Assembly: GCA_025612245.1 (NCBI GenBank)
Contig: JAAXKQ010000015.1
Location: 69,362-133,361 of the forward strand
DNA length: 64,000 bases
Direction: 5' to 3'
Origin: Ignavibacteria bacterium
GTDB lineage: Bacteria; Bacteroidota; Ignavibacteria; Ignavibacteriales; SURF-24
The notes beneath the pieces are model-generated. The model made no database searches. It worked only from the letters and a program-made list of their open reading frames with translations, and had not been told where the DNA came from. Shown here piece by piece: positions 15,344 through 64,000 of this stretch. A program made the translations under genes and the position numbers. The first letter of the stretch is position 1. Each line of letters begins with the position of its first letter.

Positions 15344-15367
15344 TATATATGTAACTTTTCCCCAAAA

Positions 15368-15405
15368 AAAGCCCGGACACGCACAAACTCCGGGCTTTCA
15401 CTTTT
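15368..15405 (+). terminator. rho-independent terminator of gltA
   Basis: aaagcccggacacgcacaaactccgggctttcacttttt. Confidence 0.6.
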
Positions 15406-15425
15406 TCCGGTACCCTTTAAGTGTG

Positions 15426-15680
15426 TTGACATTCTGGGCGCGGGAATCTATAATTTAGTATGATTATGCGAGAGACTCTGATTTCTCCGGAAGAAATATA
15501 ATTCCCGCGGAAATTTCTCTTTTGGGCTTTTGAACTATTAAGCGGTATGCAGCAAAGGAAAAAAGGATAAAAAATAATCATTCCTTATATAATTGATCGT
15601 GATAGCGGGGATAATGTCTGTGGAAAAGAAAGTCTGCTTACCGCTTAAAGCTCGGCATTATCCCCGCTATTTATTTTAAG
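15426..15680 (+). ncRNA. candidate small RNA or leader transcript with its own promoter and terminator
   Basis: Perfect TTGACA(15426-31)-17nt-TATAAT(15449-54). 13-codon ORF MIMRETLISPEEI. 10-bp pair 15541-50/15639-48 crossing a 15-bp pair 15602-16/15656-70, the latter followed by TTTATTTT. Confidence 0.35.
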
Positions 15681-15690
15681 ACATAGCTCT

Positions 15691-16011
15691 CTACTCGAAC
15701 TCCAGCAGAAGTTCTCCTTTTGCCACCCTCTCGCCTTTCGACTTCTTAACCGACTTTATCGTCCCGTCGAATGGCGCCTTGATGGTGTTTCTCATTTTCA
15801 TCGCTTCAAACACAAGTATGCTCTGATCCTGCTTTACTCGCTGCCCTTTGTTTACTGTTATATCCAGTATCACTCCGGGTATTACAGCGTATATCTTTTT
15901 CGGATCCCTGGGCGCATAGGCTTTCCTCTCGGCAAACTTGGGCGTCAGCTTTGTCATGTAAACCGTATCGTCTACAACTATTTTTTCTAGATCTTTATTG
16001 TTGTCGTTCAT
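15691..16011 (-). CDS. biotin carboxyl carrier / biotinyl-domain subunit of an acyl-CoA carboxyltransferase complex
   Basis: EAMKM biotinylation motif (VFEAMKMRNTIKAPFDG). 106 aa. Confidence 0.85.
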   Translation of the reverse strand: MNDNNKDLEKIVVDDTVYMTKLTPKFAERKAYAPRDPKKIYAVIPGVILDITVNKGQRVKQDQSILVFEAMKMRNTIKAPFDGTIKSVKKSKGERVAKGELLLEFE

Positions 16012-16012
16012 G

Positions 16013-21060: not shown

Positions 21061-21155
21061 AGTTAAATCCGTTTTTATTTCGTCAATATTTGGAGTTTTC
21101 TTCGCTATAGAAGGGTGGGCTCTGCCTGGGAGCCCGCCCGCCCTTTTAGTACTTT

Positions 21156-28586: not shown

Positions 28587-28726
28587 TTTTCCGGGAAATT
28601 CCAAGCAGCCGCAAAAAGGAATCTGGGGCTAAATCCCCAAAGAAAGGAGAGAAATCCCTGTGCCCCGGCCTAAAAGGCCGGGTACCCGGAAGCTCACTCA
28701 TCTAGACAATAATTCAGCCAGTAAAT

Positions 28727-28972
28727 CAAAAAACGTAAAAATCAGAACAACTTATATAATGCAATTACCAAGCCCCTTTTAGGGGGCTCCATGTCTTTAG
28801 CCCCAGGGAACGGATCCCCCACATTCCCCAGGCCCAATAAAATATCTGACCATCTGTAATCACGCACTAACACTAAGCCCGCTGTAGCGGGCGAGATGTC
28901 TATAGCCCGGGGTAACCAAATCACGAAAGGGATGCGGGACCCCCCGGGGACCTATAAGCGGTAGAAATTATC
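28727..28972. repeat. copy A of dispersed mosaic hairpin-module intergenic repeat (REP/BIME-like)
   Basis: About 85% identical by eye to 63594-63840. Modules of the form ...ccaag-[GC hairpin]-cg...tgtctttagccc, e.g. ccccttttaggggg and cccgctgtagcggg. Confidence 0.7.
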
Positions 28973-29245
28973 TGCACTTGCCTAAAAGTACGGATATTTC
29001 TATCCCCTGTTAGCATTCAGCATTAAACATTTTCCCCGCTAAAGGCTTAAAATTTCTCGTCCGCCCCCGTCTTTTTTGCATTTTTTTCCTCTTCACCCCT
29101 AAATCTTAAAAAAAAATGCAATTTTTTTAAAAAGTGTACGAATAATTCCATTAAATTGTTGTAGGAAATAATAAATTTTATTATGATATTTGTAGGTCCG
29201 GAAAATAGTCCGGGGTATTATATGTTTTATTTTTAAGGTTCTATA

Positions 29246-29497
29246 GTGAGTACTAAATTATTTGTAGGTTCATTACCATGGTCGGTTAACGATCAGCAAT
29301 TAGAAGAAACATTTCAGGGTTACGGAAAAGTTCTTTCTGCTAAAGTTATAATGGACCGTGCTACCGGGAGATCGAGAGGATTCGGTTTCGTTGAAATGGA
29401 AGATTCTTCTGAAGCTACCAATGCTATCAATGCTCTGAACAATTCGGAGCTCAAGGGAAGAACTATCGTAGTTAACGAAGCAAAGCCCCGCAGCTAA
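29246..29497 (+). CDS. RRM-domain RNA-binding protein
   Basis: RNP2 KLFVGSL and RNP1 RGFGFVEM. 83 aa. Confidence 0.85.
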   Translation: MSTKLFVGSLPWSVNDQQLEETFQGYGKVLSAKVIMDRATGRSRGFGFVEMEDSSEATNAINALNNSELKGRTIVVNEAKPRS

Positions 29498-29521
29498 CCA
29501 GATATTTTATGTCGGTTACAA

Positions 29522-29550
29522 AAAAGCGCTCTCAAAAAGCGCTTTTTTCT
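29522..29550 (+). terminator. rho-independent terminator
   Basis: aaaaagcgctctcaaaaagcgcttttttc. Confidence 0.65.
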
Positions 29551-29569
29551 TTTATACCATTCCTCTGCC

Positions 29570-33089: not shown

Positions 33090-35108
33090 TTAATGCTGCT
33101 CCGGGTACAGGGTAATGAAATTAACATCCGGATATTCTTTTACAAATCGCCTTGGGAACCTGTCGAGACTCCTGTCCCAGGAAATGCTTTTTCGCCGGGC
33201 GCTCACCAGTACAAAAAGGTCATCCTTCGAAAGCCCGTCTTTATCCAGGTTAAGAGCCACAAGTTTTTTGACCGTGTTATATTCAGCCTGCACTGCCGGC
33301 TTGCCTTCTTCAAGCTCCTTGCGCACCACACTTAAGCCGTGATAATTCCCGAAAAAGGAAATAACTGCTCCCGTTTGCTTTGCAAGCATGCGCATCTTAA
33401 GAAGCCACTTTTGGAACCCTTTTTCATATTCTGCCCTCTCAGGCATTAATACCGTAATCTTGTTGATTGTATTTACCGGATGTACCATCCGGCAGAAATA
33501 AAACACCGTTCCGGAATCTGTAATAAGCTGGTCCAGTATGTTACCGAATATCCTGTTGCGCGAACGGAACTCCCCTCTCCAGTCCAGTACCACGTCTGTA
33601 ATGAGCAGCTCCCTTACCGCCCTTATTATGCCGTTGGCAATGCTGGAATCGATTCTTGAAATAACTCTGAGCGGCTTCTCCGTAGCCGAAGCATGCAGAA
33701 TTGCGCGGTCGAGCACTTTCCTGTTTTTCATAATTTCATCCGGCGCCTCACGCGTATTGTCTACAACTTTCAAGGCCGTCAAAGGCTCGTCCGAAACCGG
33801 GTCCTGTATCATTGCCGCAAAATCCACCAGCGGCTCTATCGATTCATCCCTTGCAACCGGGATCAGGATTTTTTCCGTAATTGCCCCCGCTTCGCCAAGC
33901 CCTTTTTCCTGCTGCAGCGCCAGCTTACGCCCCGCTTTATCCACTATAAAGGAACTCGTAAGACTCGTTACAAGAATCATGAATATTGTGCCGTTGAGTA
34001 TGTCGTTACTGAACATTCCCGCCCTGAGCGCAATAAGAACGATTGCAAGAGTTGCCGCTGCCTGTGCGCTGCTGAGCCCGAACATAACATTCCTTTCAAG
34101 AGATGTATACTTATAAATATTCTGGACGAAAAATGCGGCAATGAACTTTGATGAAAGCGAAATAACAGTCATTAGAATTGCAACTATCCATGTTTCCGTA
34201 CTGCTGTAAAGGCTTCGTACGTCAACGAGCATTCCTACTGAAATTAGAAAGAAAGGGATAAAGATCGTGTTTCCTACAAAAAGTATTCTGTTCATTAGCG
34301 GTGAGGTTGAAGGTATATAACTGTTAATTGCAAGCCCCGCAAAAAATGCACCTATAATTGGCTCCAGCCCCGCTGCCTGTGCCAGTGAGGCCGAAAGAAA
34401 AAGAGCGGCAAGAACATAAATAAACTGCTGTTCGCCGTCAGTCTCAAGCCCCCTGAAAAACCATGCCGTAAGACGCGGAAGGACAAAGAAAACAAGAAGC
34501 ACTAAAACGGCAAAGCCCGCAATTATCCTTATCCAGAATGAACCGGTCATCTCCCCCTGCCTGATCCCTATGATAACGGCAAGCGTCAAAAGTGCAAGTA
34601 TGTCAGTAATAATTGTGCTCCCCACCGTTACAATAACGGACCTCGACTGTGAAAGCCCGAGCTTGCTGGCGGCAGGATATGTCAGCAGCGTGTGCGAAGC
34701 AAACATTGCGGACAGCAGTATGGACGACAACAGATCCAGCCTGAGCAGATAAAAAGCTGCAGTATAGCCCAGCGATATTGGAATAACAAAGGCTGTAATG
34801 CCGTAAATAATGCTCCTGTTTCGGCTCTTGCGGAACTCCTCCATGTCTATTTCAAGTCCCGCAATAAACATAATATAAAGCAGTCCCACGGTGCTGAAAA
34901 GTTCAATGCTGGCATCGCGCCCAAGAAGGTTTATGCCCTTGGGACCGAATATAACACCGGAAATTATCATGCCCACAATCCCCGGGATGCCAATGCGTTT
35001 TGAAACGAGAGGAATAAGAAGTATGGTCAATAATATTATGACAAAAATTATAACCGGATTTTTTACAGGCAGTTCTATTAAAACAATTGGATGCATTAAA
35101 CCCCGCAC
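33090..35108 (-). CDS. cation:proton antiporter (CPA family) with C-terminal cytoplasmic USP-like domains
   Basis: About 11 N-terminal TM helices typical of Na+/H+ exchangers, plus a roughly 270-aa soluble tail. Confidence 0.8.
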   Translation of the reverse strand: MRGLMHPIVLIELPVKNPVIIFVIILLTILLIPLVSKRIGIPGIVGMIISGVIFGPKGINLLGRDASIELFSTVGLLYIMFIAGLEIDMEEFRKSRNRSIIYGITAFVIPISLGYTAAFYLLRLDLLSSILLSAMFASHTLLTYPAASKLGLSQSRSVIVTVGSTIITDILALLTLAVIIGIRQGEMTGSFWIRIIAGFAVLVLLVFFVLPRLTAWFFRGLETDGEQQFIYVLAALFLSASLAQAAGLEPIIGAFFAGLAINSYIPSTSPLMNRILFVGNTIFIPFFLISVGMLVDVRSLYSSTETWIVAILMTVISLSSKFIAAFFVQNIYKYTSLERNVMFGLSSAQAAATLAIVLIALRAGMFSNDILNGTIFMILVTSLTSSFIVDKAGRKLALQQEKGLGEAGAITEKILIPVARDESIEPLVDFAAMIQDPVSDEPLTALKVVDNTREAPDEIMKNRKVLDRAILHASATEKPLRVISRIDSSIANGIIRAVRELLITDVVLDWRGEFRSRNRIFGNILDQLITDSGTVFYFCRMVHPVNTINKITVLMPERAEYEKGFQKWLLKMRMLAKQTGAVISFFGNYHGLSVVRKELEEGKPAVQAEYNTVKKLVALNLDKDGLSKDDLFVLVSARRKSISWDRSLDRFPRRFVKEYPDVNFITLYPEQH

Positions 35109-35267
35109 GATTGTTTCTAACTACTGACCCCTTATAAATAGATATCAATTTCCGGCGTGGAATTCAGTGCAGAATTTATAGACGGCCTGTGTGAGAACAA
35201 CTCTTAAAAATCTCCAGTCCATGAAACCTGAGCCTGCAGAAAACGCATTTTCCAATGAAGGGTGTTC

Positions 35268-35815
35268 TGTCTTTAGCCCCCGGGAACCATGAATTCCCCT
35301 CATCCATAAAATCTAAACCAACAGAACAATGCATCACCCAAGCTCCGGAAGGAGCGCTTTGTCTGTAGAAAACACCGGTATCCCCCTAAATTCCAGAGCT
35401 CCGAATGGAGCGACTTTTATCTTACTTACTATTGGATAAATATATCATTGAACCATGACCCCACACACATAAAAACCATCCCGTCAAAACAACCGAGAAT
35501 TATCTTAAATATCCATTACACAAAACGCACAATCAGGGAAATGAAAAAGAACATGCAACCGCTATGGGCGGTAGGGAAAACTTCTTTTGTAACCATTTCT
35601 ACAAACATGCTACCGCTAAAGCGGTAGAAATCCCAACACATTTACACCCGACCACATTGCTTCCATTCATAATTCCTCTGTGCCGCTCCTGACCGGAGCT
35701 TTGTGTATTGTTGGTGGAATCCTTTTTCCCCGGGGTTCAGTCGCCCCCATCCGGGGGCTTCCTCACCCCGGGCTACTGATGTTACGCCCGCGCTGCGGGC
35801 TTAGTCATTCCATAA
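35268..35815. repeat. copy B of mosaic hairpin-module repeat, modules in both orientations
   Basis: 35268-35425 matches copy C forward (…aaatctaaaccaacagaacaa…caagctccggaaggagcgctttgtctgtagaaaa). 35765-35805 is the reverse complement of C 63705-63745 (ctaagcccgcagcgcgggcg…cagtagcc). Confidence 0.7.
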
Positions 35816-36100
35816 TTCCAAACTCCCAGCCTTCATGGTTGTTTCCTTCCCCCTCCACCTTTGCCTTTTCCTAAACCTAGAACCTTGAACTTTGAACCCT
35901 TTTCACACTTAAAACTCAAAACTTAAAATTATTCCCCCCACTTAAAAGAAAAGCCCATACATACGCATGGGCTTAAACGGAGAAAGTATTACTTCAAATA
36001 ATCTACTCACGAAACTATTTTACTAATTTCTTCTACTTTTACTTTTTCTACTCTTTCCTCTTTTAGTACTTCAAAAAGAAAAAAGTTCCAGCTTTTTTTT

Positions 36101-38761
36101 TTACATGTTAAACCAGTATGTAAACTTCATCATAAATATATTGTCGGCTCTGGTGTTAACCAGACGGTTTAACGACCTCCCGAATTTAAACTGCCCGTCA
36201 GTATCGGATTCATCCCTGTTCTGTGTCCAGACAAGATATAGTATTGAACCCGGCATGTACTCCCATCTTAAAACTGCATTGCCCCTCAGTGACTTATAAT
36301 TGAAACTCGGGTTGTCAAAAGTATATGCTTCTGCAGGATTTGCTGCTCCGTCGGCATCAACCGTATATTCATCGCCATCCTTAACTATTGTGGAATTCCC
36401 CTTTCCGTAATTATCATAGTCCATCGAGCCCGGACGCGAGAGCATCTTAAAATCCGTATAATCGCCCGAAGAAATCAACGGCTGCATATAAAGCTGCAGA
36501 CTCAGCTGCGGGGTGAATATCCAGTTAACCCTTATTCCGGCTGCCGCGGTTAACTGCTCCATCTTCGCAAATATGTACCTTGTTCCATACGTTGCCCTTG
36601 CAGCCGCATCTTCGTAGGAATCGACCCACTGCGTATTTTCAACCAGCCCGGAGAATTCAGGAGTGATGCTGATGCTGAAGTTTGCCCCCGGCCGCCACTG
36701 TATTTCCCAGTATGTATCCCACTGGTTAGAACCATCCCTGCTCCCATAATAATCGTAGCCGTTTCCTATTACAAGACCTTTCCTGTCATCGGAATGCCAG
36801 TAGAAATTAACCTGGGAACCCGATTCATTTAGCGTAAGCGGACCTCCGCGGGTTCTCCTGTTGCTGATTGTTCGCGGATTGTAAGCCAGGTTCCAGTTGG
36901 CATAATAATAATTTGAAAACGTAATGGACCCGAAATGAAAAAGCCCTTCCCAAATGATGTTTTTGTCAAAATCGTAGCTCCTGAAAAAAGCTCCGCCCAG
37001 CTCAAGATAACGGAAGGTTTTATTCGGCTCTGTCCACTTGTAGCCCGCTCCGGCATGCATGTTTATGACGTCACCCCTCGACATATATCCCGCATCATTG
37101 ACGTCAAACCTGGGATCAATAAAGCCCAATGCCGTATTGACGAAAAAGTTACCCTTCTGCTTAACGACATAGAACCTTCCGGCATAACCCGATAGCGAAG
37201 TAGCCGAACTGTCCACGTGAATATACTTCCTGTCCGGACGCTGCAGGTAGTGCTGCGAATTCATCTGCAGATCGGTAATTCTTTCTTTTGTACCTGTAAC
37301 ACGGGTTCCTTCCATGTACCCGCTTATTACCCATTCCTTATCGGAGTCAAGAAATGTCCAGCCGTCCAGCCCCAGGGCCAATGCGCTGGAATTTATATCG
37401 CTTCTTAACCAGTCCTCCTTAAAAAACCGGCTGCTTTGCGTTGCAAGAAATCCGAGCCCCTGCCTCCCGTCGTTAAAATCTTTCTGCGCACGGTATACCC
37501 CGTAATAGGTTAGGGGTTCAACCTCAAGCGTCGATTTCTTTCCTTCATACTGCATCTCTGCGCTTTCCCGCATTGTAAGTGCACTGATTGCACCAATGTT
37601 CCAGTTATTGCTCATCTTGCCCGTAAGCTTTGCGGCACCCAGTATGTGCGCACCCGAAGGCACGTCCGAGTAATCATTGTCGGGCAGACTTCCCTGCGGC
37701 GCACGGCCAATACGGCGACTGTAAAACAGGTTGGGCTCTGGCCAGTTAAAACCCCAGTAATTAACCGCACCCCCGCGTCCGAAATTGAATATGCTGGAGC
37801 CTTCAATAAAGAACGGCCTTTTCTCCTGGTAAAATGTTTCAACGTCGCTTAAGTTTACAACAGCCGGGTCAACTTCCACCTGGCCGAAGTCGGGGTTAAC
37901 CGTTGCATTAAGCGTAAGATTGCTCCCGAGCCCCATCTTGAAGTCAAGCCCGAGCCCCGGAGTATACCTGGAATTTTTTATGAAGGGATCCTCGGCATCG
38001 TGCCTCAGGTATTCGGCCTTCCCAATTATATAAGGCAGAAGTTCCACCCTTCCCGGAGGCGTTATATGTTCAATACCCTGTATTTCTGGAAACCTGGATA
38101 CAAAGCCGCTGCCGTCTTTTGGAGTAAATGTTATGTAGTCGTCCTCGTTTTTCCTCTGTATCATCCTTTCCACATTTATTGCCCACACATAACTGTCCGC
38201 CTTATGAAACCTCAGCTGCGAATAAGGGATTCTCATTTCCGCAACCCAGCCCAGCGAGTCTATGCTGGACTTGGCTTCCCAGACACCATCCCATGAGTTA
38301 TCCGACCAGTCGTCGTTATAAAGTGTGCCGTCGAAAAGCGTTCCTGCCGCGTTTACCCCAAAGTAGTTTCCCGTGCGGTGGTCAAGGTATGGATCTATGT
38401 AAAAATAAATGATATCGGAACTGGAAGAATTATCGCGGCGACTCAAGCGGGCTACTATGGAATCGGGATGCGAATCGTACATCCTTGCTCCCACGTAGAG
38501 CGCTTCGTCATCATATGCTATGCGGACTTCCGTCCTTTCTGTCGGCTGGGCACCTTCTACTGGATCTCTCTGTAGAAAGTTGGAAAAGCAGTTATCCATC
38601 CGCTGCCAGACAGTTTCCGAGAGCCTGCCGTCTATTACAATTGTCTCTGTTGATCTTAAAGCTTTTGCACCGAGCCGTTTTGAAGTATTGGAATCCCGTC
38701 CTTCGCCAAAAACAATGCCCGCTAAAATAAGCAATACAATGATCAGCACTTTGAGTTTCAT
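36101..38761 (-). CDS. large secreted beta-rich protein, DUF5916 / CBM9-like family
   Basis: Signal peptide. N-terminal carbohydrate-binding-like domain and a long C-terminal beta-barrel-like region ending in an aromatic residue. Family assignment from memory of DUF5916 proteins. Confidence 0.6.
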   Translation of the reverse strand: MKLKVLIIVLLILAGIVFGEGRDSNTSKRLGAKALRSTETIVIDGRLSETVWQRMDNCFSNFLQRDPVEGAQPTERTEVRIAYDDEALYVGARMYDSHPDSIVARLSRRDNSSSSDIIYFYIDPYLDHRTGNYFGVNAAGTLFDGTLYNDDWSDNSWDGVWEAKSSIDSLGWVAEMRIPYSQLRFHKADSYVWAINVERMIQRKNEDDYITFTPKDGSGFVSRFPEIQGIEHITPPGRVELLPYIIGKAEYLRHDAEDPFIKNSRYTPGLGLDFKMGLGSNLTLNATVNPDFGQVEVDPAVVNLSDVETFYQEKRPFFIEGSSIFNFGRGGAVNYWGFNWPEPNLFYSRRIGRAPQGSLPDNDYSDVPSGAHILGAAKLTGKMSNNWNIGAISALTMRESAEMQYEGKKSTLEVEPLTYYGVYRAQKDFNDGRQGLGFLATQSSRFFKEDWLRSDINSSALALGLDGWTFLDSDKEWVISGYMEGTRVTGTKERITDLQMNSQHYLQRPDRKYIHVDSSATSLSGYAGRFYVVKQKGNFFVNTALGFIDPRFDVNDAGYMSRGDVINMHAGAGYKWTEPNKTFRYLELGGAFFRSYDFDKNIIWEGLFHFGSITFSNYYYANWNLAYNPRTISNRRTRGGPLTLNESGSQVNFYWHSDDRKGLVIGNGYDYYGSRDGSNQWDTYWEIQWRPGANFSISITPEFSGLVENTQWVDSYEDAAARATYGTRYIFAKMEQLTAAAGIRVNWIFTPQLSLQLYMQPLISSGDYTDFKMLSRPGSMDYDNYGKGNSTIVKDGDEYTVDADGAANPAEAYTFDNPSFNYKSLRGNAVLRWEYMPGSILYLVWTQNRDESDTDGQFKFGRSLNRLVNTRADNIFMMKFTYWFNM

Positions 38762-45374: not shown

Positions 45375-45517
45375 CCCTGCCCACAGTCTCCGGCACTCCC
45401 GGACAATGTATTTAGTATCATCCAGTCAGGCGGGCCCGTCCCGCCTGATCCAATCCCGCGTCCCTCTCTGCCATTAAAACTCCGGCTTTAATACTAATCA
45501 CTCTTCACTTTTCCCCT

Positions 45518-47383: not shown

Positions 47384-47621
47384 AAAGGACGGGCAAATTT
47401 CGGACGTTACTTTCTGTACCGCATGCGGCGAAGAGCTAAGGAATTATTCCATGACCGGCAAGGCATCCGACGGCAAGTCGGCCAGGGAAAGATTTCATAA
47501 CTGCCAGAAAAGCGGCAAATTTAAAGGCGATATGTGCGCCCGGCTCTTTATAGCCGACTTTAATGAAGAGGACCTGCCTAAGGACGAAGATATTTTCTTC
47601 CCTCCTGAGGATGAATCTTAA
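47361..47621 (+). CDS. small Cys-containing hypothetical protein (CxxC...C...C)
   Basis: FCTACGEE...HNCQ...CARLF. Overlaps the previous ORF by 23 nt in another frame. Confidence 0.25.
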   Translation: MKKPKSNRKDGQISDVTFCTACGEELRNYSMTGKASDGKSARERFHNCQKSGKFKGDMCARLFIADFNEEDLPKDEDIFFPPEDES

Positions 47622-49346: not shown

Positions 49347-49657
49347 TATTTCACCACCACTGTATAAAGAGTTTTTTTCGAATAATTGCCGCTCTCAATG
49401 CCTCTGGTCTCCATTGTCCAGAAATACAAGCCTTCAGGAAGCTTCATATCATTCGTCTGGATAGAGTAAGCCCCGGGAAGTTGAATGTCATCAACAAGTA
49501 AAGCCACGGTAGTTTTGTAGCTGTTTTCGATGGTTATCCTCACATGTTCCCTTTCAGTAACTTTGTAACTAATTGTAGTTGAGGGGTCGTCCAGGATGGA
49601 CGATTTGCATCCTGCAAAAGCAAAGACGAGCAATAATAACGGAATGGCCAGTTTCAT
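49346..49657 (-). CDS. small lipoprotein (hypothetical), translationally coupled to the downstream OMP gene
   Basis: Lipobox FAFAGCKSS. TAATG stop/start overlap at 49344-49348. Confidence 0.5.
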   Translation of the reverse strand: MKLAIPLLLLVFAFAGCKSSILDDPSTTISYKVTEREHVRITIENSYKTTVALLVDDIQLPGAYSIQTNDMKLPEGLYFWTMETRGIESGNYSKKTLYTVVVK

Positions 49658-49938
49658 AATTTCAATATCTCCGGTAATTATGCAATATTTTGATATTTAG
49701 TTCACAATATTACAAACAAATGTAAAAGTATCAAAATGATTTAGCAGGGGGTTTCGCGTTTTTTGGGATTTATTTGGACGGTTATGCAGGGGGGCAGAAT
49801 GCAGAAAATGGTCATTTAATGAATAATAAAACCGGGCAGACAGGAAAAATACGCAAAAAAATCAAAAAAGATATAATGGGACAAAAAAATACCAATAAAA
49901 CCTTTGGAAAAAAGTCGTTTTTTTCTTAATTTTGTCGT

Positions 49939-50011
49939 GCACCCTTAGCTCAGCTGGTAGAGCATCTGACTCTTAATCAGCAGGTCGCCGGTTCGAATCC
50001 GGCAGGGTGCA
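49939..50011 (+). tRNA. tRNA-Lys (anticodon CTT)
   Basis: Manual cloverleaf. Acceptor gcaccct/agggtgc, D-stem gctc/gagc, anticodon loop cuCUUaa, T-arm gccgg-ttcgaat-ccggc. CCA is not encoded. Confidence 0.9.
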
Positions 50012-50015
50012 CTGC

Positions 50016-50050
50016 TAAAAGCTTCAGTTTCGCAAGAAACTCGAAGCTTT
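50016..50050 (+). terminator. terminator after tRNA-Lys
   Basis: aagcttcagtttcgcaagaaactcgaagcttttttt. Confidence 0.6.
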
Positions 50051-50173
50051 TTTTATTTTAAACCTGACTTTATTCATACTAACCCGGATCGTCTCCGTCA
50101 GCATAAATAAGCCTCCTCTCAATCCCATAAATACTAAGGCCCGCCATAAAGACAGGCCCTAATGAACCTTTTT

Positions 50174-52467: not shown

Positions 52468-53172
52468 GTGGGCCTTTGGGGCAATTTCATTTTAAAGCCT
52501 CCAATGGAGGAATATTTTCAGATGCCGGAAATTGAAGATCTGACAATGCATCTGTCTGAGATGTTAAAAATCAGAACAGCTGAGCATACGTTAATACGCC
52601 TTAATTCCGGTGAGCTTGCTTATTTATCAAAACGCTTCGACCGAACCGCAAAAAATAAACTTCAGCTTAAGGATATGGCACAGCTTACCGGTACTCTTAC
52701 AGAACGTAAATACAAAAGTTCCATGGGAAAAATCGGCAAAACAATACTTAAATATTCAAGCTATCCGAAATTTGACCTCCTGACATTTTTCGAACTCACG
52801 GTGTTTTCTTTTCTGACGGGAAACGCAGATATGCACCTGAAGAACTTTTCTCTTCTTACAAACAACGAAGACGAGGTAATGCTTTCTCCAGCTTATGACC
52901 TGCTTTCAACAAAGCTCCTTATTCCGGAAGATACAGAAGAAATGGCTCTTACGTTAAACGAAAAGAAAAGCAATCTTAAGAGAAGGGATTTTGACACGTT
53001 TGCTGAATCACTTCAGATAAACAGCACGTCTGTAAACAACTCATACCGGAAGTTTTTTAGCAGTGAACCTATGATACTTGAGTTTATCGATAAAAGTTTT
53101 TTACAGCCAGAACTCAAAGAGGCTTATAAAAAGCTCTATTCAGAAAAGATTGAAAAACTTAAAAATCAGTGA
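52468..53172 (+). pseudogene. 5'-truncated HipA-like Ser/Thr kinase toxin gene (C-terminal catalytic half only)
   Basis: AYLSKRFDR, DMHLKNFSLL and SPAYDLLS are collinear with E. coli HipA RFDRR / DGHAKNFS / PFYDIIS. The upstream GAQEK P-loop region is absent. Operator-like palindromes sit upstream. Confidence 0.55.
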
Positions 53173-53610
53173 TAAATTGGTAGTATCTAGAATTTAGTGT
53201 AAATGATTTATAATTCAATCCCGGAACGTAGCCCCGAGGGGCGGACAGCGGAGGGATTAAATTTACAGCGACTCTGGAAGTTAACCAGAGGAATTAATAA
53301 ATTAAATCATCTACAAGGAAGAGAGATTATCTCTCTTCTCTATACAGCTTCCCATGCAAGATTATTGAGCAGGTGGTTCATTTTGACTAGGCCCTCAAGT
53401 TCAAGGTCCTTACTCATTATAAGATTATGCATCTGGGCTATAGCATTGGAATTTGACAGCTCGTATTCAAGATTAGATTCTGAGTCATCAACTACTTTAC
53501 AGGCTTTTCTAATGTACTTCTATGCTTTTCAAAGAAAGCTTTAGCTGAAATTACTTCCTTCTTGTCATTCGGCAGTCAAACACCTCCTTAAGACCAGCAA
53601 GATAATATCC

Positions 53611-53997
53611 TCAGTAATAAATAAGATCCTCGTCTTTTTCATCGAACTTCAGGATATTGCTGAAATAGCTTGAGATGCTATTCTTCATAATAACAGGGTC
53701 CTTGGGCTTTACTAATATAAAGTAGTAGCCCGTTTTTTCTTCTTCATATTCTGACCATTTGCTTATTTCTCTAAAACCACTACAATCAATCAATTGTTAG
53801 TCACTGTTACCTATCCAATAATACCCATGACTGTCTTTTGATGCAATAACCATCCAATGTTCTTCATTCTCAACCCTTGCGATGATAGGATAGCCTGTTT
53901 CCAAAGTTTTGCCTATTGCCATCTTGACTTTGGCTTCCTCTTTAATATCACATACCACCGATTCAAGGTCGAACTTGTTTAAGACACGACGAATCAC
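53611..53997 (-). pseudogene. disrupted ORF remnant (two adjacent same-strand fragments separated by a stop)
   Basis: Track ORFs 53797-53997 and 53611-53793 share a strand and are adjacent. Motifs GYPIIARV...HWMVIASKD...NSD are faintly papain/C39_2-like. Confidence 0.25.
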
Positions 53998-54334
53998 ACC
54001 CGCAGATGTACCATATTTTTTGTGACACTTGCGGCCCTATGGCCCATTTCGGAACTTATCGGAAAGCCTAATACAAGTGCTAAGTGTAAAATGGCGTACT
54101 CCCAGCAATCGCCATAGACTTCCTGGTACTTAAACCATACTAGTTCCCTTCGCTTTTAAGTAAGCGGATTAGTTTTTTAATCATTTCATTTACTCCGATT
54201 AGTGATTATAAGGATTTGCCGGGCTTTCCTTTTACTGACATTCTACTTATCCCACTTTTATCCACAGAGAAAATGAAGTAATATACCAGTACTTTTATAA
54301 AATTTTATGGAGTGGACTTCATAATGATGTTAAT

Positions 54335-54367
54335 CTAAAAATAAAAGGGAGATATACTCCCTTTTAT
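54335..54367. terminator. hairpin terminator at the 3' end of the OLD gene
   Basis: aaaagggagatatactcccttttattta. Confidence 0.5.
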
Positions 54368-56263
54368 TTAGCTCTCAATCTCTGCCTTGACAGTATTAAT
54401 AACCATCGGACGCTGCACAAATTCATTAACTCTTCTTAATATATTACGAAGTTCATCCTGAGGATCCCTAATACTGAGAAGTTCTGGAGTCATGTGCTTA
54501 ACTGCCAAAGCATTAAGCCACTTCTTGCATGCAGATTCTTTTTTCTTTTTATTCTCATCATCTAAGCTATCCCATGAATTTGGTGAATCGCTATTTTCCA
54601 ATAGCTTTTGTGCAGCCATTATTGGAACATCATCAAAATCTCCAAACGCAATAACAACTTCTGGCCGAACCCTTTGAACGGCTGTAGGATGAAGGTAGTT
54701 TTCAATCTCTAACTTGGATAAAATATATGCTTCACAGTTGTCTCTGAGATTAGTTTCATCGGCATTTTTTTTGTATTTGGGTTCTTTAGGAGGTATAGTA
54801 TCCCTGTCATAAATATGAATTTCGGGACGATTAAAGCCTTTCAGCCTACTGGTCCAAAGAGCCAGATTAGATCCCCCAAATGGAATGAATATTACAGAAC
54901 CAGCATTTTCCAGATCTTCAAGGTTAGGTATGTCTGGTTCTGTTTGCGCAAGTACCTTAGATATCTCCTTAAAAAAGTTTATATCATTTGGCCCTTCAAC
55001 GCATAAAAACAACTTAACATCATGATCAGCTAATATCCCAAGATCTTTAATTATTCTTTTAATTGTTTCATCATCATCTTTGTGCAGTATTCGCTTCTTA
55101 TCTGCTGTTTTTTCAATATATCTTATGGAGGAAGATGGTATTAAGCGGGCTAATGTAGGCGTGTGTGTAGATATTATCACCTGGCAGTTAGAATTATGGA
55201 CCAATTCAAACAAAGATTCAAGCAACATAACTTGGTTTGTCGGATGCTGAGAGGTTTCTGGTTCTTCAATCGCATATATAATACCTGGCGAATTCCGCTC
55301 GATAGCCTGTTGTTCTGCCTTAGCCCTAAAAAAGTTAATTAAAATTAATCTTCTGACACCACTACCTCGCTTGTTGACAGGGACCTGTGTTTCATCAGTC
55401 AAACTTACCTTAAATATCTTGTCCCATGCAGAATCCAATACTTTCGGGTTTAACTCACTTGCCAGATCTGGATCCATTTCCTTTAATTTGTCAACCGTTG
55501 CCTTACTTACCTTTTCAACTTTCTCCTTAACATTTTGTATAATTTTATCAAGATCGTGCCTTTGGCTTTCCAAAGCTTCTTTGATTGCGACCTTCATAGG
55601 GTCCTGCGCTTCATTGTCCTGGTCTGTGCTTTCTCTATCAGATTTAAACAATGCAAATAAGGGCATTTCTGATTTAATTTTATCCCACATTCTTTTCTGA
55701 TCTTCATCTTTATCTTTTAATTGTATTCGTTGTTCGGCCAATTCAAGATCTGGAAATGAACTCCATATTTTTTGTCTTATCTCGGCCTTAATTGTTTCCT
55801 TAACATCATCAAGACTTACCCCAATATCCTTTGCCCTTTTTCTTAGCTGTGTAATTGTTAGTTGATATAAATCATTGGCATTATCGATGCTAGGATGCAG
55901 AGAATTGAGATAGACTTCCTTTGGCTTTGGTTTTCCACCAGTATATACTTTCACAACTACTAAATTCCCATTTGAATTTAGTAAATACTCATCCTTAAGA
56001 TCTACTACATTTGTTGCATCAATTATTAATGTTTGCGGCACTTCAGTAAATTCACAAGTGATAGTTATATCATCAGAGGCGGAACCAACGCTGATATCGC
56101 CTTGATCCAAAGAGGTATCATTAAAGAATACATTCATTGCATCTAAAATGGCCGACTTACCCGAATCATTCTTAGCAATTAAAGTCGTAAAGTCGTCAAA
56201 CTCAATTTTGAATTTTTCTTTGTAGCATCTGAAGTTTTCAATGGTTAAGGAAACCAGTTTCAT
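54368..56263 (-). CDS. OLD-family ATP-dependent endonuclease (ABC-type ATPase + C-terminal Toprim), standalone class-1-like
   Basis: N-terminal IENFRCY...KNDSGKS Walker A of AAA_15/21 OLD ATPases. IEEPETSQHP signature-like motif. C-terminal Toprim with CVEGPND and YDRD. Confidence 0.8.
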   Translation of the reverse strand: MKLVSLTIENFRCYKEKFKIEFDDFTTLIAKNDSGKSAILDAMNVFFNDTSLDQGDISVGSASDDITITCEFTEVPQTLIIDATNVVDLKDEYLLNSNGNLVVVKVYTGGKPKPKEVYLNSLHPSIDNANDLYQLTITQLRKRAKDIGVSLDDVKETIKAEIRQKIWSSFPDLELAEQRIQLKDKDEDQKRMWDKIKSEMPLFALFKSDRESTDQDNEAQDPMKVAIKEALESQRHDLDKIIQNVKEKVEKVSKATVDKLKEMDPDLASELNPKVLDSAWDKIFKVSLTDETQVPVNKRGSGVRRLILINFFRAKAEQQAIERNSPGIIYAIEEPETSQHPTNQVMLLESLFELVHNSNCQVIISTHTPTLARLIPSSSIRYIEKTADKKRILHKDDDETIKRIIKDLGILADHDVKLFLCVEGPNDINFFKEISKVLAQTEPDIPNLEDLENAGSVIFIPFGGSNLALWTSRLKGFNRPEIHIYDRDTIPPKEPKYKKNADETNLRDNCEAYILSKLEIENYLHPTAVQRVRPEVVIAFGDFDDVPIMAAQKLLENSDSPNSWDSLDDENKKKKESACKKWLNALAVKHMTPELLSIRDPQDELRNILRRVNEFVQRPMVINTVKAEIES

Positions 56264-56464
56264 ATTGACTCCCAGAATAGTATGACAAATGAGTTAATAG
56301 TGAACTATATTCGTGTTCGTTTTTAAGCCATTGTTTTAGAGAATGAATGGAATCACTAAGGAATCAGAATATATAGTAGGAAAAGACAGGCCTTGTTCAT
56401 GGTGTCAGAGTATTTTTTAGATCGGCAGTTAAATTAATATTTATTTTAATGTTAAACAAATTAA

Positions 56465-56492
56465 TCGCCGGTTCGAATCCGGCAGGGTGCAC
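56465..56492 (+). repeat. attR-like direct repeat: copy of the 3' 28 nt of tRNA-Lys
   Basis: Identical to 49985-50012 and followed by a related terminator hairpin. Confidence 0.8.
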
Positions 56493-56874
56493 CAGAAAGC
56501 TTCCGTTCCGCAAGAATTTCGAAGCTTTTTATTTTTATCCTGCGCCGTAGAATTAGATAAGCCCCTTACAACTGCCATGAAATGGCCTTTTATGGAAAAA
56601 CCAATGATGATTAACCTGGGGGCATTTTAATCCTTTCTGATACCCTTTATTGCCATGCTTTTTAAATGCCTCGTGCAATGTGGCGTTGAATCGCCCCAAT
56701 TTTTATGATTATACTTTCCTTATCTTACCTTTTGGCATTTAATTATTATTATCTAAATTTGGGAACAAAAATTCTCCATATGCGTTTTTGTTTCCTTAAA
56801 GATAAGTGACAGATCAGAACCTATTAAACTCTTGGCAACACATATAAAACGCGGCTATATAATTGAGGTTAATA

Positions 56875-57720
56875 ATGATTGTAGGTAAAACAATTCAGAT
56901 ATTTCTTCCTGACGCTAACCCCAGAAGCGTTAAAATTGCAGAAATAACCAGCCGGACCGTTCAGGCGATACTAATCCCAAGAACAAAACTGGATTATATT
57001 TTTGCAAGGGAAGAATTGAATAATGTTGGGGTGTATCTCCTCATTGGAAACCCCGATGAAGACGTAAAACCTTTATTATATATTGGCGAGGCAGAAGATT
57101 GCAAAATCCGGCTTAAACAGCATAATGCTTCAAAAGACTTTTGGAATTACGCAATTGCAATAATCTCCAAAACTCACTACTTCACAAAAACCCACATTAA
57201 ATTTCTTGAATCATTCATGTATCAGGAAGCTAAAAGAATTAACAGATATAAACTGGAAAACAGCACTAATCCCACAATGCCTTATGTATCGGAATCCATG
57301 ACGGCAGATTTAATGGATAACTTTGATACGATAAAAATTCTGGTTTCAACGCTTGGGTTTCCGGTATTTGATGAAATAAAAACAGAACAGAAAGCCGATT
57401 TACTTTACTGTAAAGGCAAAGACGCACATGCAACCGGCCAGCTGACCGATGAAGGCTTCTTGGTATTTTCCGGGTCAAAATGCAACCTGAAGGAAGCAAA
57501 TACCCTTCCCCCATGGGCCACAAAAATGCGCAGGAGACTGATTGAAGAAAAAATATTGCAAGTAAAAGATACCGTGATCGAATTTGCTTCGGACCATCTG
57601 TTTGATTCCCCAAGCGCCGCGGCCACCGCCGTTTTAGCGAGAAATGCAAATGGATGGATAGAATGGAGATATAAGAACAGAAAAACTCTGGATGAAGTAA
57701 AAAGGCAGATTAAAGTATAA
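56875..57720 (+). CDS. GIY-YIG nuclease domain protein with C-terminal DUF4357-like domain
   Basis: GVYLLIGN...LLYIGEAEDCKIRLKQH...N matches GIY-(10)-YIG...R...H..N spacing. C-terminal NGWIEWRY motif. AT-rich like the adjacent island. Confidence 0.65.
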   Translation: MIVGKTIQIFLPDANPRSVKIAEITSRTVQAILIPRTKLDYIFAREELNNVGVYLLIGNPDEDVKPLLYIGEAEDCKIRLKQHNASKDFWNYAIAIISKTHYFTKTHIKFLESFMYQEAKRINRYKLENSTNPTMPYVSESMTADLMDNFDTIKILVSTLGFPVFDEIKTEQKADLLYCKGKDAHATGQLTDEGFLVFSGSKCNLKEANTLPPWATKMRRRLIEEKILQVKDTVIEFASDHLFDSPSAAATAVLARNANGWIEWRYKNRKTLDEVKRQIKV

Positions 57721-63505: not shown

Positions 63506-63593
63506 ATAGGCTCGCCTTATTCTTATCCCTTCCACCGGGGAGATGCAGTTTATACACAATTTGGTACCGGTTCGGTACCCGTAGCCCGTAATT

Positions 63594-64000
63594 CAAAAAC
63601 GTAAAATGCAGAACACCATACATAACGCAATTACCAAGCCCCTTTTGAGGGGCGCCATGTCTTTAGCCCAATAAAACAAATCCCCCCACATTCCCCAGTC
63701 CCCATAAAATTTCTGACCATCTATAATCACGCAATAACTAAGCCCGCAGCGCGGGCGAAACATCAGTAGCCGGGGGTGACCAAATCCCGATAGGGATGCG
63801 GGAACCCCCGGGAACCATGAAATCCCCACGCTCATAAAATCTAAACCAACAGAACAACGCTTCCCCCAAGCTCCGGGGGCGAATAATCCCACAACCATCT
63901 CTACGATATCTGAACCAATATAATCACGCATCTTCCAAGCTCCGGAGGAGCGCTTTGTCTGTAGAAAAAAACGAATAAAAAAAAGAATCAGAGCTCCGGA
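63594..64000. repeat. copy C of mosaic hairpin-module repeat (truncated by window end)
   Basis: Collinear with copy A for about 245 bp, then extends with modules shared with copy B. Confidence 0.7.

What the first reader, a model, noticed from the sequence alone, without database searches (positions are those of the whole stretch)
35109..36100. 1 kb non-coding tract packed with repeat modules in both orientations plus low-complexity runs
The interval between the antiporter start and the DUF5916 gene end contains no credible ORF. It holds forward-oriented modules (35268-35425), palindromes ccgctatgggcgg and ccgctaaagcgg (35562-35620), and an inverted segment (35765-35805) that is the reverse complement of copy C. 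It also has simple repeats (gaacctt / aaactcaaaactt; T-rich ctttt runs 36000-36095). Inverted modules could drive local inversion or serve as a MITE landing pad. This is the upstream region of the antiporter gene.
Basis: seen in the sequence. Interest (0 to 1): 0.6.

Follow-up and report, generated by a model that had tools for sequence, protein, structure and literature searches.

The report
REP-like hairpin repeat cluster between genes
The 1-kb gap between two genes of an uncultured Ignavibacteria genome is a lineage-specific pile-up of short hairpin repeats, and in other bacteria the same repeats surround a small IS200-like HUH transposase gene, so this is most likely a REP/BIME-type selfish repeat cluster, not a gene or a switch.

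Summary
Window 35109-36100 has no credible gene and holds about 9 copies of a ~45-nt module: CCAA, a 5-bp GC hairpin, then G-nnn-TGTCTnTAG. Three lie on the + strand (35242-35428) and five or six on the - strand (35545-35814). One of these is a GTAG-tagged 44-nt bulged palindrome. The same family fills two other intergenic tracts of the window (28.7 kb and 63.6 kb).

The two closest genomes keep the gene order but have only 188-306 nt here. They share just the DUF5916 terminator and ~75 nt upstream of the antiporter, so ~770 nt is a lineage-specific insertion between terminator and promoter.

A pattern taken from the window's modules hit at least 120 metagenome contigs. In 13 of them the modules flank a ~155-aa Y1/HUH (IS200-like, Y-x3-Q-x2-HH) gene. 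Six homologues chosen independently also had modules only beside the gene, and a different Y1 family had none.

Best reading: a REP/BIME-like cluster whose family forms REPtron-like loci with a Y1 subclass that the literature lists as having no REPs. The cognate gene was not found in this window. I found no evidence for inversion, MITE ends, a coding gene or a known RNA family.

The parts
35097..35170 (-). Conserved proximal upstream region of the antiporter (probable promoter/5' leader). It contains the inverted repeat GAATTCCacgccGGAAATT.
   Evidence: This is the only part of the antiporter side that aligns with L004 (window 35170 onward, 78% identity) and, by eye, with L005. That it acts as a promoter is inferred.
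35242..35286 (+). Degenerate module. The hairpin is lost but the tail TGTCTTTAGCCCCCGGGAACC is kept.
   Evidence: Model R1 gives 18.3 bits, E 0.036. Alignment A1.
35277..35329 (+). C/A-rich spacer unit belonging to the composite repeat.
   Evidence: 89% identical to 63805-63876. Alignment A6.
35328..35372 (+). Module: CCAA-GCTCC-ggaa-GGAGC-gctt-TGTCTGTAG.
   Evidence: R1 gives 43.9 bits, E 8e-9. The canonical nhmmer profile gives E 3e-7.
35384..35428 (+). Module with a decayed tail: GCTCC-gaat-GGAGC-gacttttatc.
   Evidence: R1 gives 34.6 bits, E 2e-6. Hairpin fold z-score -2.3.
35429..35544 (.). Linker between the + arm and the - arm. It holds no module.
   Evidence: No R1 hit. No remnant of a Y1 gene by relaxed tblastn. 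35450-35493 weakly resembles the spacer unit.
35545..35592 (-). Palindromic module: CTACCGC-ccata-GCGGTTG followed by catgttc.
   Evidence: Read from the sequence. Fold z-score -2.95. Direct repeat D5 with the next module.
35595..35641 (-). Palindromic module: CTACCGC-ttta-GCGGTAG followed by caTGTTTGTAG.
   Evidence: Found by the hairpin-plus-tail scans. Fold z-score -4.1.
35679..35713 (-). Weak module with a diverged tail: caaaGCTCC-ggtca-GGAGC.
   Evidence: R1 gives 12 bits, E 1.6. Hairpin fold z-score -3.8.
35729..35776 (-). GTAG-tagged long bulged palindrome: GTAG-CCCGGGGT..GCCCCC-ggat-GGGGGC..ACCCCGGG.
   Evidence: Folds at -18.1 kcal/mol, z-score -4.15. Copies lie at 28902-28949 and 63766-63812, where the inner stem is ATCCC/GGGAT instead of GCCCCC/GGGGGC, a compensatory change.
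35769..35814 (-). Module: CTAA-GCCCGC-agc-GCGGGC-gtaaCATCAGTAG. Its GTAG is the tag of the palindrome listed just above.
   Evidence: R1 gives 44.2 bits, E 7e-9. Inverted copy of 63728-63773.
35822..35943 (.). Low-complexity stretch with 7-nt tandem repeats (AACCTTG, ACTTAAA). It is part of the lineage-specific insert.
   Evidence: TRF finds arrays at 35870-35898 and 35907-35928. It has no counterpart in L004 or L005.
35944..35989 (-). Intrinsic terminator of the DUF5916 gene (10-bp stem followed by TTTTCTTTT).
   Evidence: Terminator scan. Fold z-score -5.3. Conserved in L004 (5703-5749) and L005 (5839-5886).
35990..36100 (-). A/G-rich 3' untranslated stretch of DUF5916, containing a 9-nt repeat.
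   Evidence: TRF finds an array at 36027-36057. The stop codon is at 36101-36103.
28726..28955 (+). Sister tract: the composite ~225-nt unit (module, spacer, module, GTAG palindrome) between convergent genes.
   Evidence: R1 gives 47.7 and 43 bits. Alignment A5.
63593..64000 (+). Sister tract downstream of the TonB-dependent receptor gene: the same composite plus at least 3 further modules. It runs off the end of the window.
   Evidence: R1 gives 53.3, 48.7 and 44.4 bits. Alignments A5 and A6.

Best explanation
The tract is a REP/BIME-like mosaic, that is, a cluster of short extragenic hairpin repeats. The basic unit is ~45 nt: CCAA, a 5-7-bp GC-rich hairpin, then a fixed 3' tail G-nnn-(A)TGTCTnTAG. 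A GTAG-tagged 44-nt bulged palindrome accompanies it.

Shown:
- The modules have accumulated in the window's lineage (an Ignavibacteria MAG) in the neutral zone between the DUF5916 terminator and the antiporter's proximal promoter region. They expand a ~200-300-nt spacer to 1 kb.
- The family is widespread. In other bacteria (KSB1, Acidobacteria, Saprospiraceae and unnamed metagenome contigs) its members sit immediately on both sides of a ~155-aa IS200-like Y1/HUH endonuclease gene. This is the REPtron arrangement.

Inferred:
- The modules are recognised as folded single-stranded DNA hairpins by such a Y1 enzyme.
- The enzyme cuts near the conserved TATAG/TGTAG tail and copies or moves the modules.
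- Local duplication and recombination then build arrays in both orientations.
- The cluster itself is probably neutral for the two genes, or at most adds insulation between them.
For: 1. Repeat identity and statistics. R1 hits have E 2e-6 to 3e-11, and all lie in three intergenic tracts of the 64-kb window. blastn confirms this.
2. The hairpin is maintained through compensatory change. All 40 cells pair in the window's 8 seed modules, against 42-55% when the partner column is slid. Stems include GCTCC/GGAGC, GCCCC/GGGGC and GCCCGC/GCGGGC.
3. The hairpin accompanies the tail. Across all fetched loci, 228 of 242 tails ATGT[CT]T[AG]TAG have a perfect hairpin of at least 4 bp placed 1-5 nt upstream, against 11% for shuffled upstream sequence. 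At least 12 stem variants occur.
4. Lineage-specific insertion. L004 and L005 (antiporter 81-83% identical) keep the DUF5916-antiporter order with 306-nt and 188-nt spacers. They share only the terminator and the proximal ~75 nt.
5. Repeat behaviour in assemblies. Three independent assemblies break inside the tract at 35722, 35907 and 35366.
6. Family breadth. The model finds 145 hits in the first 80 loci, and nhmmer finds 364 hits in 619 kb.
7. Association with Y1. Unbiased clustering of neighbouring ORFs recovered a PF01797 protein in 13 of 120 loci. Where both flanks are on the contig, modules lie on both sides.
8. Reverse test. The exceptions are one 11.6-bit hit (E 0.41) 2.8 kb away in L159 and the same weak flank hits (12.6-13.4 bits, E>=0.45) in the three identical assemblies L149-L151, where the nearest hit is 94 nt from the gene.
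9. Negative control. Four contexts of a different Y1 family (the L062 type) gave 0 hits in 30.7 kb.
10. Catalytic motifs. The Y1 protein has an invariant HUH motif (PDHxH), WQ, and Y-I-x2-Q-x2-HH. It matches NCBIfam transpos_IS200 above the cut-off. Its closest solved structures are ISDra2 and IS608 TnpA.
11. Position. All three tracts in the window lie at the 3' ends of genes, as REPs do.
Against: - No Y1 gene of this family is present in the 64-kb window. The rest of the genome could not be searched, so the cognate enzyme for these copies is unproven.
- The window's modules have diverged from the canonical core. The canonical nhmmer profile recovers only 3 of them.
- The conserved (G/A)TAG lies 9-10 nt 3' of the small hairpin, not directly 5' of it as in classical REPs.
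- The associated protein scores below the cut-off for NCBIfam REP_Tyr_transpos (36-40 bits against 80).
- Orientation of modules around Y1 genes follows no simple rule.
- The 120 loci were selected with a sequence pattern. This may enrich for the well-conserved copies that lie next to Y1 genes.
- No biochemical evidence exists.
Confidence: 0.72

Rival explanations
1. The tract is a decayed REPtron. A Y1 gene once sat between the + arm (35242-35428) and the - arm (35545-35814) and has since been deleted, leaving only its flanking repeat clusters.
For: The layout (+ + + gap - - - -) mimics several Y1 loci, for example L046, L061 and L057, which have + modules on the left and - modules on the right. 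Frameshifted Y1 genes exist in L027 and L120.
Against: The gap is only 116 nt. A relaxed tblastn of three Y1 proteins against the tract gives only noise (best E 0.64). The two other tracts in the window show the same modules with no such symmetry.
Confidence: 0.08
2. The tract consists of nested MITEs or IS fragments, meaning non-autonomous DDE-type transposons with terminal inverted repeats and target-site duplications.
For: A ~225-nt composite recurs at 28726-28955 and 63593-63816, and partly, inverted, at 35726-35817. The site is polymorphic between genomes.
Against: The composite's ends (AAAAACGTAAAA... and ...CCCCCGGGAACC) are not inverted repeats of each other, and no flanking duplication is visible. 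The conserved unit across genomes is the 45-nt hairpin module, not the composite. The associated gene is a Y1/HUH enzyme, not a DDE transposase.
Confidence: 0.07
3. The modules act as RNA: a structured 5' leader or regulatory element of the antiporter, small RNAs, or 3'-end stabilisers and terminators.
For: The hairpins are stable. Several are scored as terminator-like. In metagenome loci there is a mild bias for the module to lie on the strand of the nearer upstream gene (52:38 between tandem genes, 23:5 between convergent genes).
Against: No Rfam match reaches gathering score, and none falls on the modules even at E<=10. The tract is absent from the closest relatives, so it cannot be a conserved leader. 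The + arm is antisense to both neighbouring genes. The same modules flank Y1 genes in both orientations. The gene calls behind the strand bias are crude.
Confidence: 0.08
4. The tract is an invertible, phase-variable promoter segment bounded by the inverted modules.
For: Inverted repeats are present: 35278-35297 against 35716-35735, and 35726-35817 against copies elsewhere in the window.
Against: The arms within the tract are only 20 nt long and 75% complementary. None of the neighbouring genes scanned is a recombinase. All assemblies that enter the tract are collinear with the window.
Confidence: 0.02

Closest known systems
REP / BIME elements with REPtrons (TnpA_REP or RAYT groups 2 and 3; E. 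coli, Pseudomonas, Stenotrophomonas), as defined in PMC8266576, PMC2817692 and PMC3116915
   Same: - Short extragenic palindromic units, many copies, located at the 3' ends of genes.
- Clusters with units in both orientations and in tandem.
- A GTAG-tagged bulged palindrome is present (35729-35776).
- In other genomes, family members immediately flank a small HUH/Y1 gene, which is the REPtron layout.
   Different: - The commonest unit has only a 5-bp stem with conserved single-stranded flanks.
- Its (G/A)TAG lies 9-10 nt 3' of the hairpin rather than directly 5' of it.
- The core sequence is conserved across phyla, whereas classical REPs are species-specific.
- The associated protein belongs to the IS200-like class, not class 2 TnpA_REP. 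NCBIfam REP_Tyr_transpos scores 36-40 bits against a cut-off of 80.
TnpA(Y1) subclass 1.2 of Quentin et al. 2018 (PMC6006769)
   Same: - The module-associated protein has the subclass signature Y-x3-Q-x2-HH, a DH[IVTA]H HuH motif, WQ, and a length of ~150 aa.
- It occurs in Bacteroidota.
- Where seen, each protein occupies one conserved locus.
   Different: [quoted passage not shown] Here hairpin modules flank the gene in 13 plus 6 loci.
- The taxonomic range seen here also includes KSB1, Acidobacteria and Nitrospira, judged by NCBI protein names.
- The assignment to subclass 1.2 rests on motifs only, not on a phylogeny.
IS200/IS605 insertion sequences (IS608, ISDra2)
   Same: - The nearest solved structures to the associated Y1 protein are ISDra2 and IS608 TnpA.
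- A subterminal hairpin followed about 10 nt later by a short conserved motif resembles an IS608 right end, where the cleavage site lies 3' of the hairpin. That comparison rests on established knowledge summarised in PMC8266576.
   Different: - The modules occur as arrays of several copies on each side of the gene, in mixed orientation.
- Most copies are dispersed far from any Y1 gene: 107 of 120 loci have none.
- No defined left-end/right-end pair bounds a mobile unit.
MITEs of Bacteroidota (for example the Porphyromonas gingivalis MITE, PMC4596501)
   Same: Non-coding intergenic repeats that break assemblies.
   Different: No terminal inverted repeats or target-site duplications were found. 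The unit is 45 nt, and the associated enzyme is HUH/Y1.

Membership tests
REP (repetitive extragenic palindrome) | Small palindromic unit of 20-50 nt that can fold as a hairpin. | tested here: met
   All 8 seed modules pair fully across a 5-bp stem. The long palindrome at 35729-35776 folds at -18.1 kcal/mol, z-score -4.15. Across loci, 94% of tails have an upstream hairpin against 11% for shuffled sequence. The basic hairpin (14-18 nt) is at the short end of the range.
REP (repetitive extragenic palindrome) | A conserved tetranucleotide, usually GTAG, immediately 5' of the palindrome. | tested here: inconclusive
   Met for the long bulged palindrome: GTAG or ATAG directly precedes CCCGGGG in all 3 copies. 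Not met for the basic module, where the conserved (G/A)TAG ends a 13-nt tail 3' of the hairpin.
REP (repetitive extragenic palindrome) | High copy number, almost all extragenic. | tested here: inconclusive
   The 64-kb window holds at least 12 modules in 3 tracts, all intergenic. The genome-wide count could not be made. In metagenome loci, crude ORF calls placed 141 of 361 hits inside 'ORFs', but many of those ORFs are likely spurious reading frames through GC-rich repeat arrays.
BIME (mosaic of REP and inverted REP) | REPs in both orientations separated by linkers, often repeated in tandem. | tested here: met
   The + modules lie at 35242-35428 and the - modules at 35545-35814. Recurrent spacer units are present. 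Elsewhere, tandem arrays have periods of 52-53 nt (L036, L046) and inverted pairs sit ~180 nt apart.
REPtron | A single Y1/HUH tnpA gene immediately flanked by its cognate REPs. | tested here: inconclusive
   Met for the family in other genomes: 13 of 120 module loci and, among 6 independently chosen Y1 loci, modules at E<0.1 beside the gene in 5 and only weak flank hits (12.6-14.5 bits) in the sixth. Not shown for this genome: there is no Y1 gene in the window, and the remaining ~510 kb of the contig could not be searched.
TnpA_REP / RAYT (class 2) | The associated protein belongs to the REP-associated tyrosine transposase family. | tested here: not met
   NCBIfam REP_Tyr_transpos scores 36.3 and 40.2 bits against a cut-off of 80. 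transpos_IS200 scores 78.3 and 60.9 bits against a cut-off of 55. The protein carries Y-x3-Q-x2-HH rather than Y-x3-NP.
MITE | Terminal inverted repeats and target-site duplication bounding a unit of 100-500 nt. | tested here: not met
   The ends of the ~225-nt composite are not inverted repeats, and no duplication is seen at its borders in the two full copies.
Invertible (phase-variable) DNA switch | Inverted repeats bounding a segment, a nearby site-specific recombinase, and both orientations present in the population. | tested here: not met
   The neighbouring genes are DUF4097, DUF5916, Na/H exchanger, rubrerythrin and DUF2807, with no recombinase. Assemblies L002, L003 and L144 are collinear with the window. 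Read-level data were not available.
Known structured RNA (Rfam 15) | A match to a curated covariance model. | tested here: not met
   Only tRNA-Lys reaches gathering score in the window. With E<=10, the only matches in the tract fall on the terminator and the A-rich 3' region, none on the modules. Canonical arrays L036, L046, L058, L062 and L072 give 0 matches at E<=1.

The most novel reading that the evidence does not exclude
The window's modules belong to an undescribed REPtron class. In this class an IS200-like Y1/HUH protein (Quentin subclass 1.2, published as lacking REPs or terminal hairpins) is the domesticated partner of a ~45-nt 'hairpin + ATGTCTATAG' repeat. The repeat core is conserved across Bacteroidota (including Ignavibacteria and Saprospiraceae), KSB1, Acidobacteria and probably Nitrospira, and it populates the intergenic regions of many soil and freshwater bacteria. 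This would give subclass 1.2 a function. It would also extend REP/RAYT-type systems well beyond Proteobacteria, with a recognition architecture closer to an IS608 end than to a GTAG-REP.
Probability: 0.5. Interest if true: 0.62.

Novelty: new variant of a known kind. Interest (0 to 1): 0.42.

Why it matters
For this locus the result is mostly clarifying. The 1-kb gap is selfish or neutral repeat DNA wedged between a terminator and a promoter. It is not a hidden gene, riboswitch or switch, and it explains why short-read assemblies break here.

The wider point is that the modules led to a repeat family with a strongly conserved ~32-nt core, present in at least 120 metagenome contigs. The family is not in Rfam. 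The one full-text search for core sequence strings returned only unrelated primer and oligonucleotide matches. The family consistently brackets a small IS200-like HUH gene whose subclass was published as having no associated repeats. If confirmed, this is a new REP-transposase partnership in the Bacteroidota and Acidobacteria. These phyla lack well-described REP systems. It would also supply a tractable substrate-enzyme pair for studying single-strand DNA hairpin recognition.

Practically, translated module arrays probably account for many spurious 'hypothetical proteins'. One example is an ...AINMALLTEL... reading frame through the arrays in L029 and L068.

Tried and rejected
- **Coding gene or alternative genetic code.** No Pfam hits for the tract's ORFs. 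Stop-free stretches stay short even when a stop codon is reassigned, and the window's genes use all three stops. The region is absent from relatives.
- **Known RNA family.** Rfam at gathering score and at E<=10 over the tract, and over canonical arrays, gave nothing on the modules.
- **First RAYT lead.** A regex search for HUH...Y-x-NP found 320-aa Y1_Tnp genes in L062 and L116 near modules. Four homologous contexts (L145-L148) then had no modules, so that family is not the partner. It served as the negative control.
- **Y1 gene in the window.** No Y1_Tnp hit among the 28 window ORFs scanned with Pfam. tblastn with three Y1 proteins found nothing in the window.
- **Remnant of a Y1 gene in the linker.** Only noise.
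- **Finding the Ignavibacteria genome's own Y1 gene.** The third protein search, using the low-GC L057 protein, returned Saprospiraceae and other Bacteroidia names but no Ignavibacteria. Contig look-ups were then exhausted.
- **Modules in 215 kb around orthologous antiporters of 19 other genomes.** None were significant.
- **Plasmid collection.** No match to the core.
- **Literature search for the core sequence strings.** Only unrelated primer matches.
- **L004-type GTAG-CCACGACC REP.** Absent from the window.
- **Orientation of modules relative to genes in metagenome loci.** Only a mild bias, resting on crude gene calls, so no conclusion was drawn.
Full report
**1. The observation**

Window 35109-36100 lies between the stop codon of a DUF5916/CBM9 gene (36101-38761, minus strand) and the start of a Na+/H+-exchanger gene (33090-35096, minus strand).

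There is no credible gene in the tract:
- No ORF with a start codon exceeds 64 aa, and the four longest have no Pfam match.
- Reassigning any one stop codon gives at most 157 stop-free codons. The window's genes use TAA, TAG and TGA.

- forward modules (35242-35428);
- the two CCGC...GCGG palindromes (35560-35572 and 35613-35624);
- an inverted copy (35726-35817) of a repeat at 63725-63814;
- short 7-nt and 9-nt tandem repeats.

The repeats are far beyond chance. blastn E-values reach 9e-18. A covariance model built from eight window modules (R1) scores E 2e-6 to 3e-11. All its strong hits fall in just three intergenic tracts of the 64-kb window: 28.7 kb, 35.2-35.8 kb and 63.6-64.0 kb.

**2. 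Anatomy**

Reading the minus strand from DUF5916 towards the antiporter, the tract consists of:
- an A/G-rich 3' stretch (36100-35990);
- a strong intrinsic terminator (hairpin 35974-35951 followed by TTTTCTTTT; fold z-score -5.3);
- about 120 nt of low-complexity sequence;
- five or six modules on the minus strand (35814-35545);
- a 116-nt linker;
- three modules on the plus strand (35428-35242);
- about 70 nt of unique sequence;
- the antiporter's proximal upstream region (35170-35097).

The basic module is about 45 nt. It reads nAnGCAnnnACCAA, then a 5-6-bp GC hairpin, then G-nn(n)-TGTCTnTAG-CC (alignments A1-A3).

The stem sequence changes between copies while pairing is kept. Variants are GCTCC/GGAGC, GCCCC/GGGGC, GCCCGC/GCGGGC and CTACCGC/GCGGTAG. 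In the eight seed modules 100% of cells pair, against 42-55% when the partner column is slid.

One module's GTAG tail also serves as the tag of a 44-nt bulged palindrome (35776-35729; -18.1 kcal/mol, z-score -4.15). This palindrome has two more copies in the window, and their inner stem differs by compensatory changes.

Modules and spacers combine into a composite of about 225 nt. It recurs at 28726-28955 and 63593-63816.

**3. Comparison with related genomes**

Identical proteins are named 'Ignavibacteria bacterium' in NCBI. The window matches JGI metagenome contig Ga0395530_000002.

The two closest genomes in the species-level collection are L004 and L005, with antiporters 81-83% identical. 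Their submitter labels conflict with each other and are probably wrong. Both keep the DUF5916-antiporter order, but with only 306 nt and 188 nt between the genes. The shared parts are the terminator (window 35989-35944) and the proximal ~75 nt upstream of the antiporter.

About 770 nt (35171-35943) is therefore a lineage-specific insertion, placed exactly between a terminator and the next gene's promoter region.

L004 carries at the same place a different, classical GTAG-REP pair in inverted orientation (L004 5755-5778 and 5872-5895). That family is absent from the window. The site is thus a recurrent landing zone for palindromic repeats.

Independent assemblies of the same organism break inside the tract, at window 35722, 35907 and 35366. 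Otherwise they are collinear with the window. This is the behaviour of repeated DNA and gives no sign of inversion.

**4. The family outside this genome**

By sample of origin these appear to be mostly soil, peat and lake metagenomes; this rests on my reading of the contig identifiers, since the scan output gives no sample descriptions.

R1 found 145 hits in the first 80 loci. An nhmmer profile found 364 hits in 619 kb.

The canonical core is CCAAGCTCCGT(n)AGGAGCG(c/g)CATGTCTATAG. Columns that the search pattern did not constrain are also nearly invariant, for example G after the stem in 144 of 145 copies and T42 in 145 of 145.

A scan using only the tail, without any stem requirement, found a perfect hairpin just upstream in 228 of 242 cases, against 11% for shuffled sequence. 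At least 12 different stems occur.

The host contigs range from 43% to 63% GC. Tandem arrays with 52-53-nt periods and inverted pairs are common.

The family is not in Rfam and not in the plasmid collection. The one full-text search for core sequence strings returned only unrelated primer matches.

**5. The associated gene**

All ORFs from the 120 loci were clustered without prior assumptions. The second largest cluster was a ~155-aa PF01797 (Y1_Tnp) protein. The largest was made of reading frames through the repeats themselves.

tblastn finds this protein in 13 of 120 loci. Where both flanks are on the contig, module clusters lie within tens of nucleotides on both sides. For a gene that occurs once or twice per genome (my assumption), about 0.1-0.3 copies would be expected in 650 kb.

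The reverse test used six homologues chosen only for long contigs. By NCBI names two are KSB1 and one is Acidobacteria; the other three are unnamed. R1, which was built only from the window's modules, gave 46 hits at E<=1. Of these, 39 lie within ~350 nt of the Y1 gene, including every hit at E<0.4. The seven exceptions are weak: one 11.6-bit hit (E 0.41) 2.8 kb downstream in L159, and flank hits of 12.6-13.4 bits (E>=0.45) in the three identical assemblies L149-L151. In that KSB1 context all flank hits are weak (at most 14.5 bits) and the nearest lies 94 nt from the gene.

A different Y1 family had looked promising at first (L062 and L116). It had no modules in four contexts totalling 30.7 kb and serves as the negative control.

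The associated protein has these properties:
- invariant PDHxH (HuH), WQ and Y-I-x2-Q-x2-HH;
- a score above the NCBIfam cut-off for IS200/IS605 transposase and below the cut-off for REP-associated tyrosine transposase;
- ISDra2 and IS608 TnpA as the closest solved structures.

The Y-x3-Q-x2-HH signature is the one Quentin et al. 2018 give for their subclass 1.2. [quoted passage not shown] My assignment to the subclass rests on motifs, not on a tree.

**6. Interpretation**

*Shown:*
- The tract is a non-coding, lineage-specific cluster of hairpin modules in both orientations.
- The hairpin is under selection for pairing.
- The family is widespread.
- Elsewhere, family members bracket an IS200-like HUH/Y1 gene in the manner of a REPtron. 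REP, BIME and REPtron are used as defined in PMC8266576.

*Inferred:*
- The modules are substrates of such a Y1 enzyme, acting on folded single-stranded DNA.
- The conserved tail ending in TATAG/TGTAG acts as recognition or cleavage motif. The hairpin followed by a ~10-nt tail resembles an IS608 right end.
- Arrays grow by local duplication.

*Not shown:*
- That this Ignavibacteria genome encodes the enzyme. There is no Y1 gene in the window, and the rest of the contig could not be searched.
- Any activity of the enzyme.
- Any effect on DUF5916 or antiporter expression.

Because the conserved terminator and the conserved proximal upstream region both survive intact on either side, the most economical view is that the cluster sits in a neutral zone.

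**7. Rivals**

- *Decayed REPtron.* A Y1 gene lost between the arms is suggested by the + + + / - - - - layout, but no gene remnant is found.
- *MITE.* This fails on the absence of terminal inverted repeats and target duplications.
- *RNA function.* This reading is weakened by absence from relatives, both orientations, and no Rfam match. It is not excluded as a secondary role, as with the 3'-end effects reported for E. coli REPs.
- *Invertible switch.* It has no recombinase nearby, only short diverged arms, and collinear assemblies.

**8. Verdict**

Its interpretation (inversion driver or MITE landing pad) is only partly right.

The locus itself is an ordinary kind of thing, a REP/BIME-like repeat cluster in a safe intergenic position.

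What is not ordinary is the family it belongs to. It has a cross-phylum conserved hairpin module that forms REPtron-like loci with an IS200-like Y1 subclass published as repeat-free. I rate that as a new variant of a known kind, with moderate interest. The main gap is the missing link to a Y1 gene in this particular genome.

Noticed in passing
window 56410-56494 (+): ARAGORN reports a 'tRNA-???' with a four-base anticodon (attt). Rfam's tRNA model does not report it at gathering score. It lies between an AAA_15/AbiEii-like ATPase gene (54368-56263) and a GIY-YIG/DUF4357 gene (56863-57720), near a HipA_C gene (52468-53172). This looks like a defence-island setting downstream of tRNA-Lys (49939-50012).
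   Followed up: no
L004 5755-5895: At the orthologous site, the closest related genome has a classical GTAG-REP inverted pair (GTAGCCACGACCttcaGGTCGTGG ... CCACGACCtgaaGGTCGTGGCTAT). The layout is REPIN-like, with two small palindromes in the 93-nt spacer. L005 has a single degenerate copy (ATAGCCACGAGC...). That family is absent from the window.
   Followed up: partly
window 28587-29569 and 63506-64000: Two more intergenic tracts are filled with the same module family. Both include a shared ~225-nt composite and lie downstream of the 3' ends of genes (a CAAX protease-like gene and a TonB-dependent receptor gene). The second tract runs off the end of the window.
   Followed up: partly
L004 and L005 record titles; window proteins: Proteins identical to the window's are named 'Ignavibacteria bacterium' in NCBI. 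The two closest MAG loci are labelled 'Acidobacteriota bacterium' and 'Syntrophomonadaceae bacterium' (PRJNA951521), although they share gene order and 73-78% nucleotide identity with the window. These are probably taxonomic mislabels or binning errors.
   Followed up: partly
L152 3001-3477; L159 3001-3471: Module-associated Y1 genes sit inside otherwise ordinary operons. One lies between the hsdR and hsdM genes of a type I restriction system (KSB1). Another lies between the dihydroorotase gene and carA.
   Followed up: no
window 45389-45415 (+), 47526-47553 (+), 21105-21135 (-): These are single hairpins followed by a TGTnTnTAG-like tail in short intergenic regions. They could be solo diverged modules or just terminators. 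R1 does not score them.
   Followed up: no
window 15344-16012, 49347-50173, 53173-54367, 60326-61072: Other unusually long intergenic regions (670-1195 nt) have no hits to this module family. Their content was not examined.
   Followed up: no
L062 1150-1700: This GC-rich contig carries a second, unrelated repeat (GCGGACAAGAATGTCC... and its inverse) between a 317-aa Y1_Tnp gene and the modules. It may be the cognate repeat of that other Y1 family.
   Followed up: no
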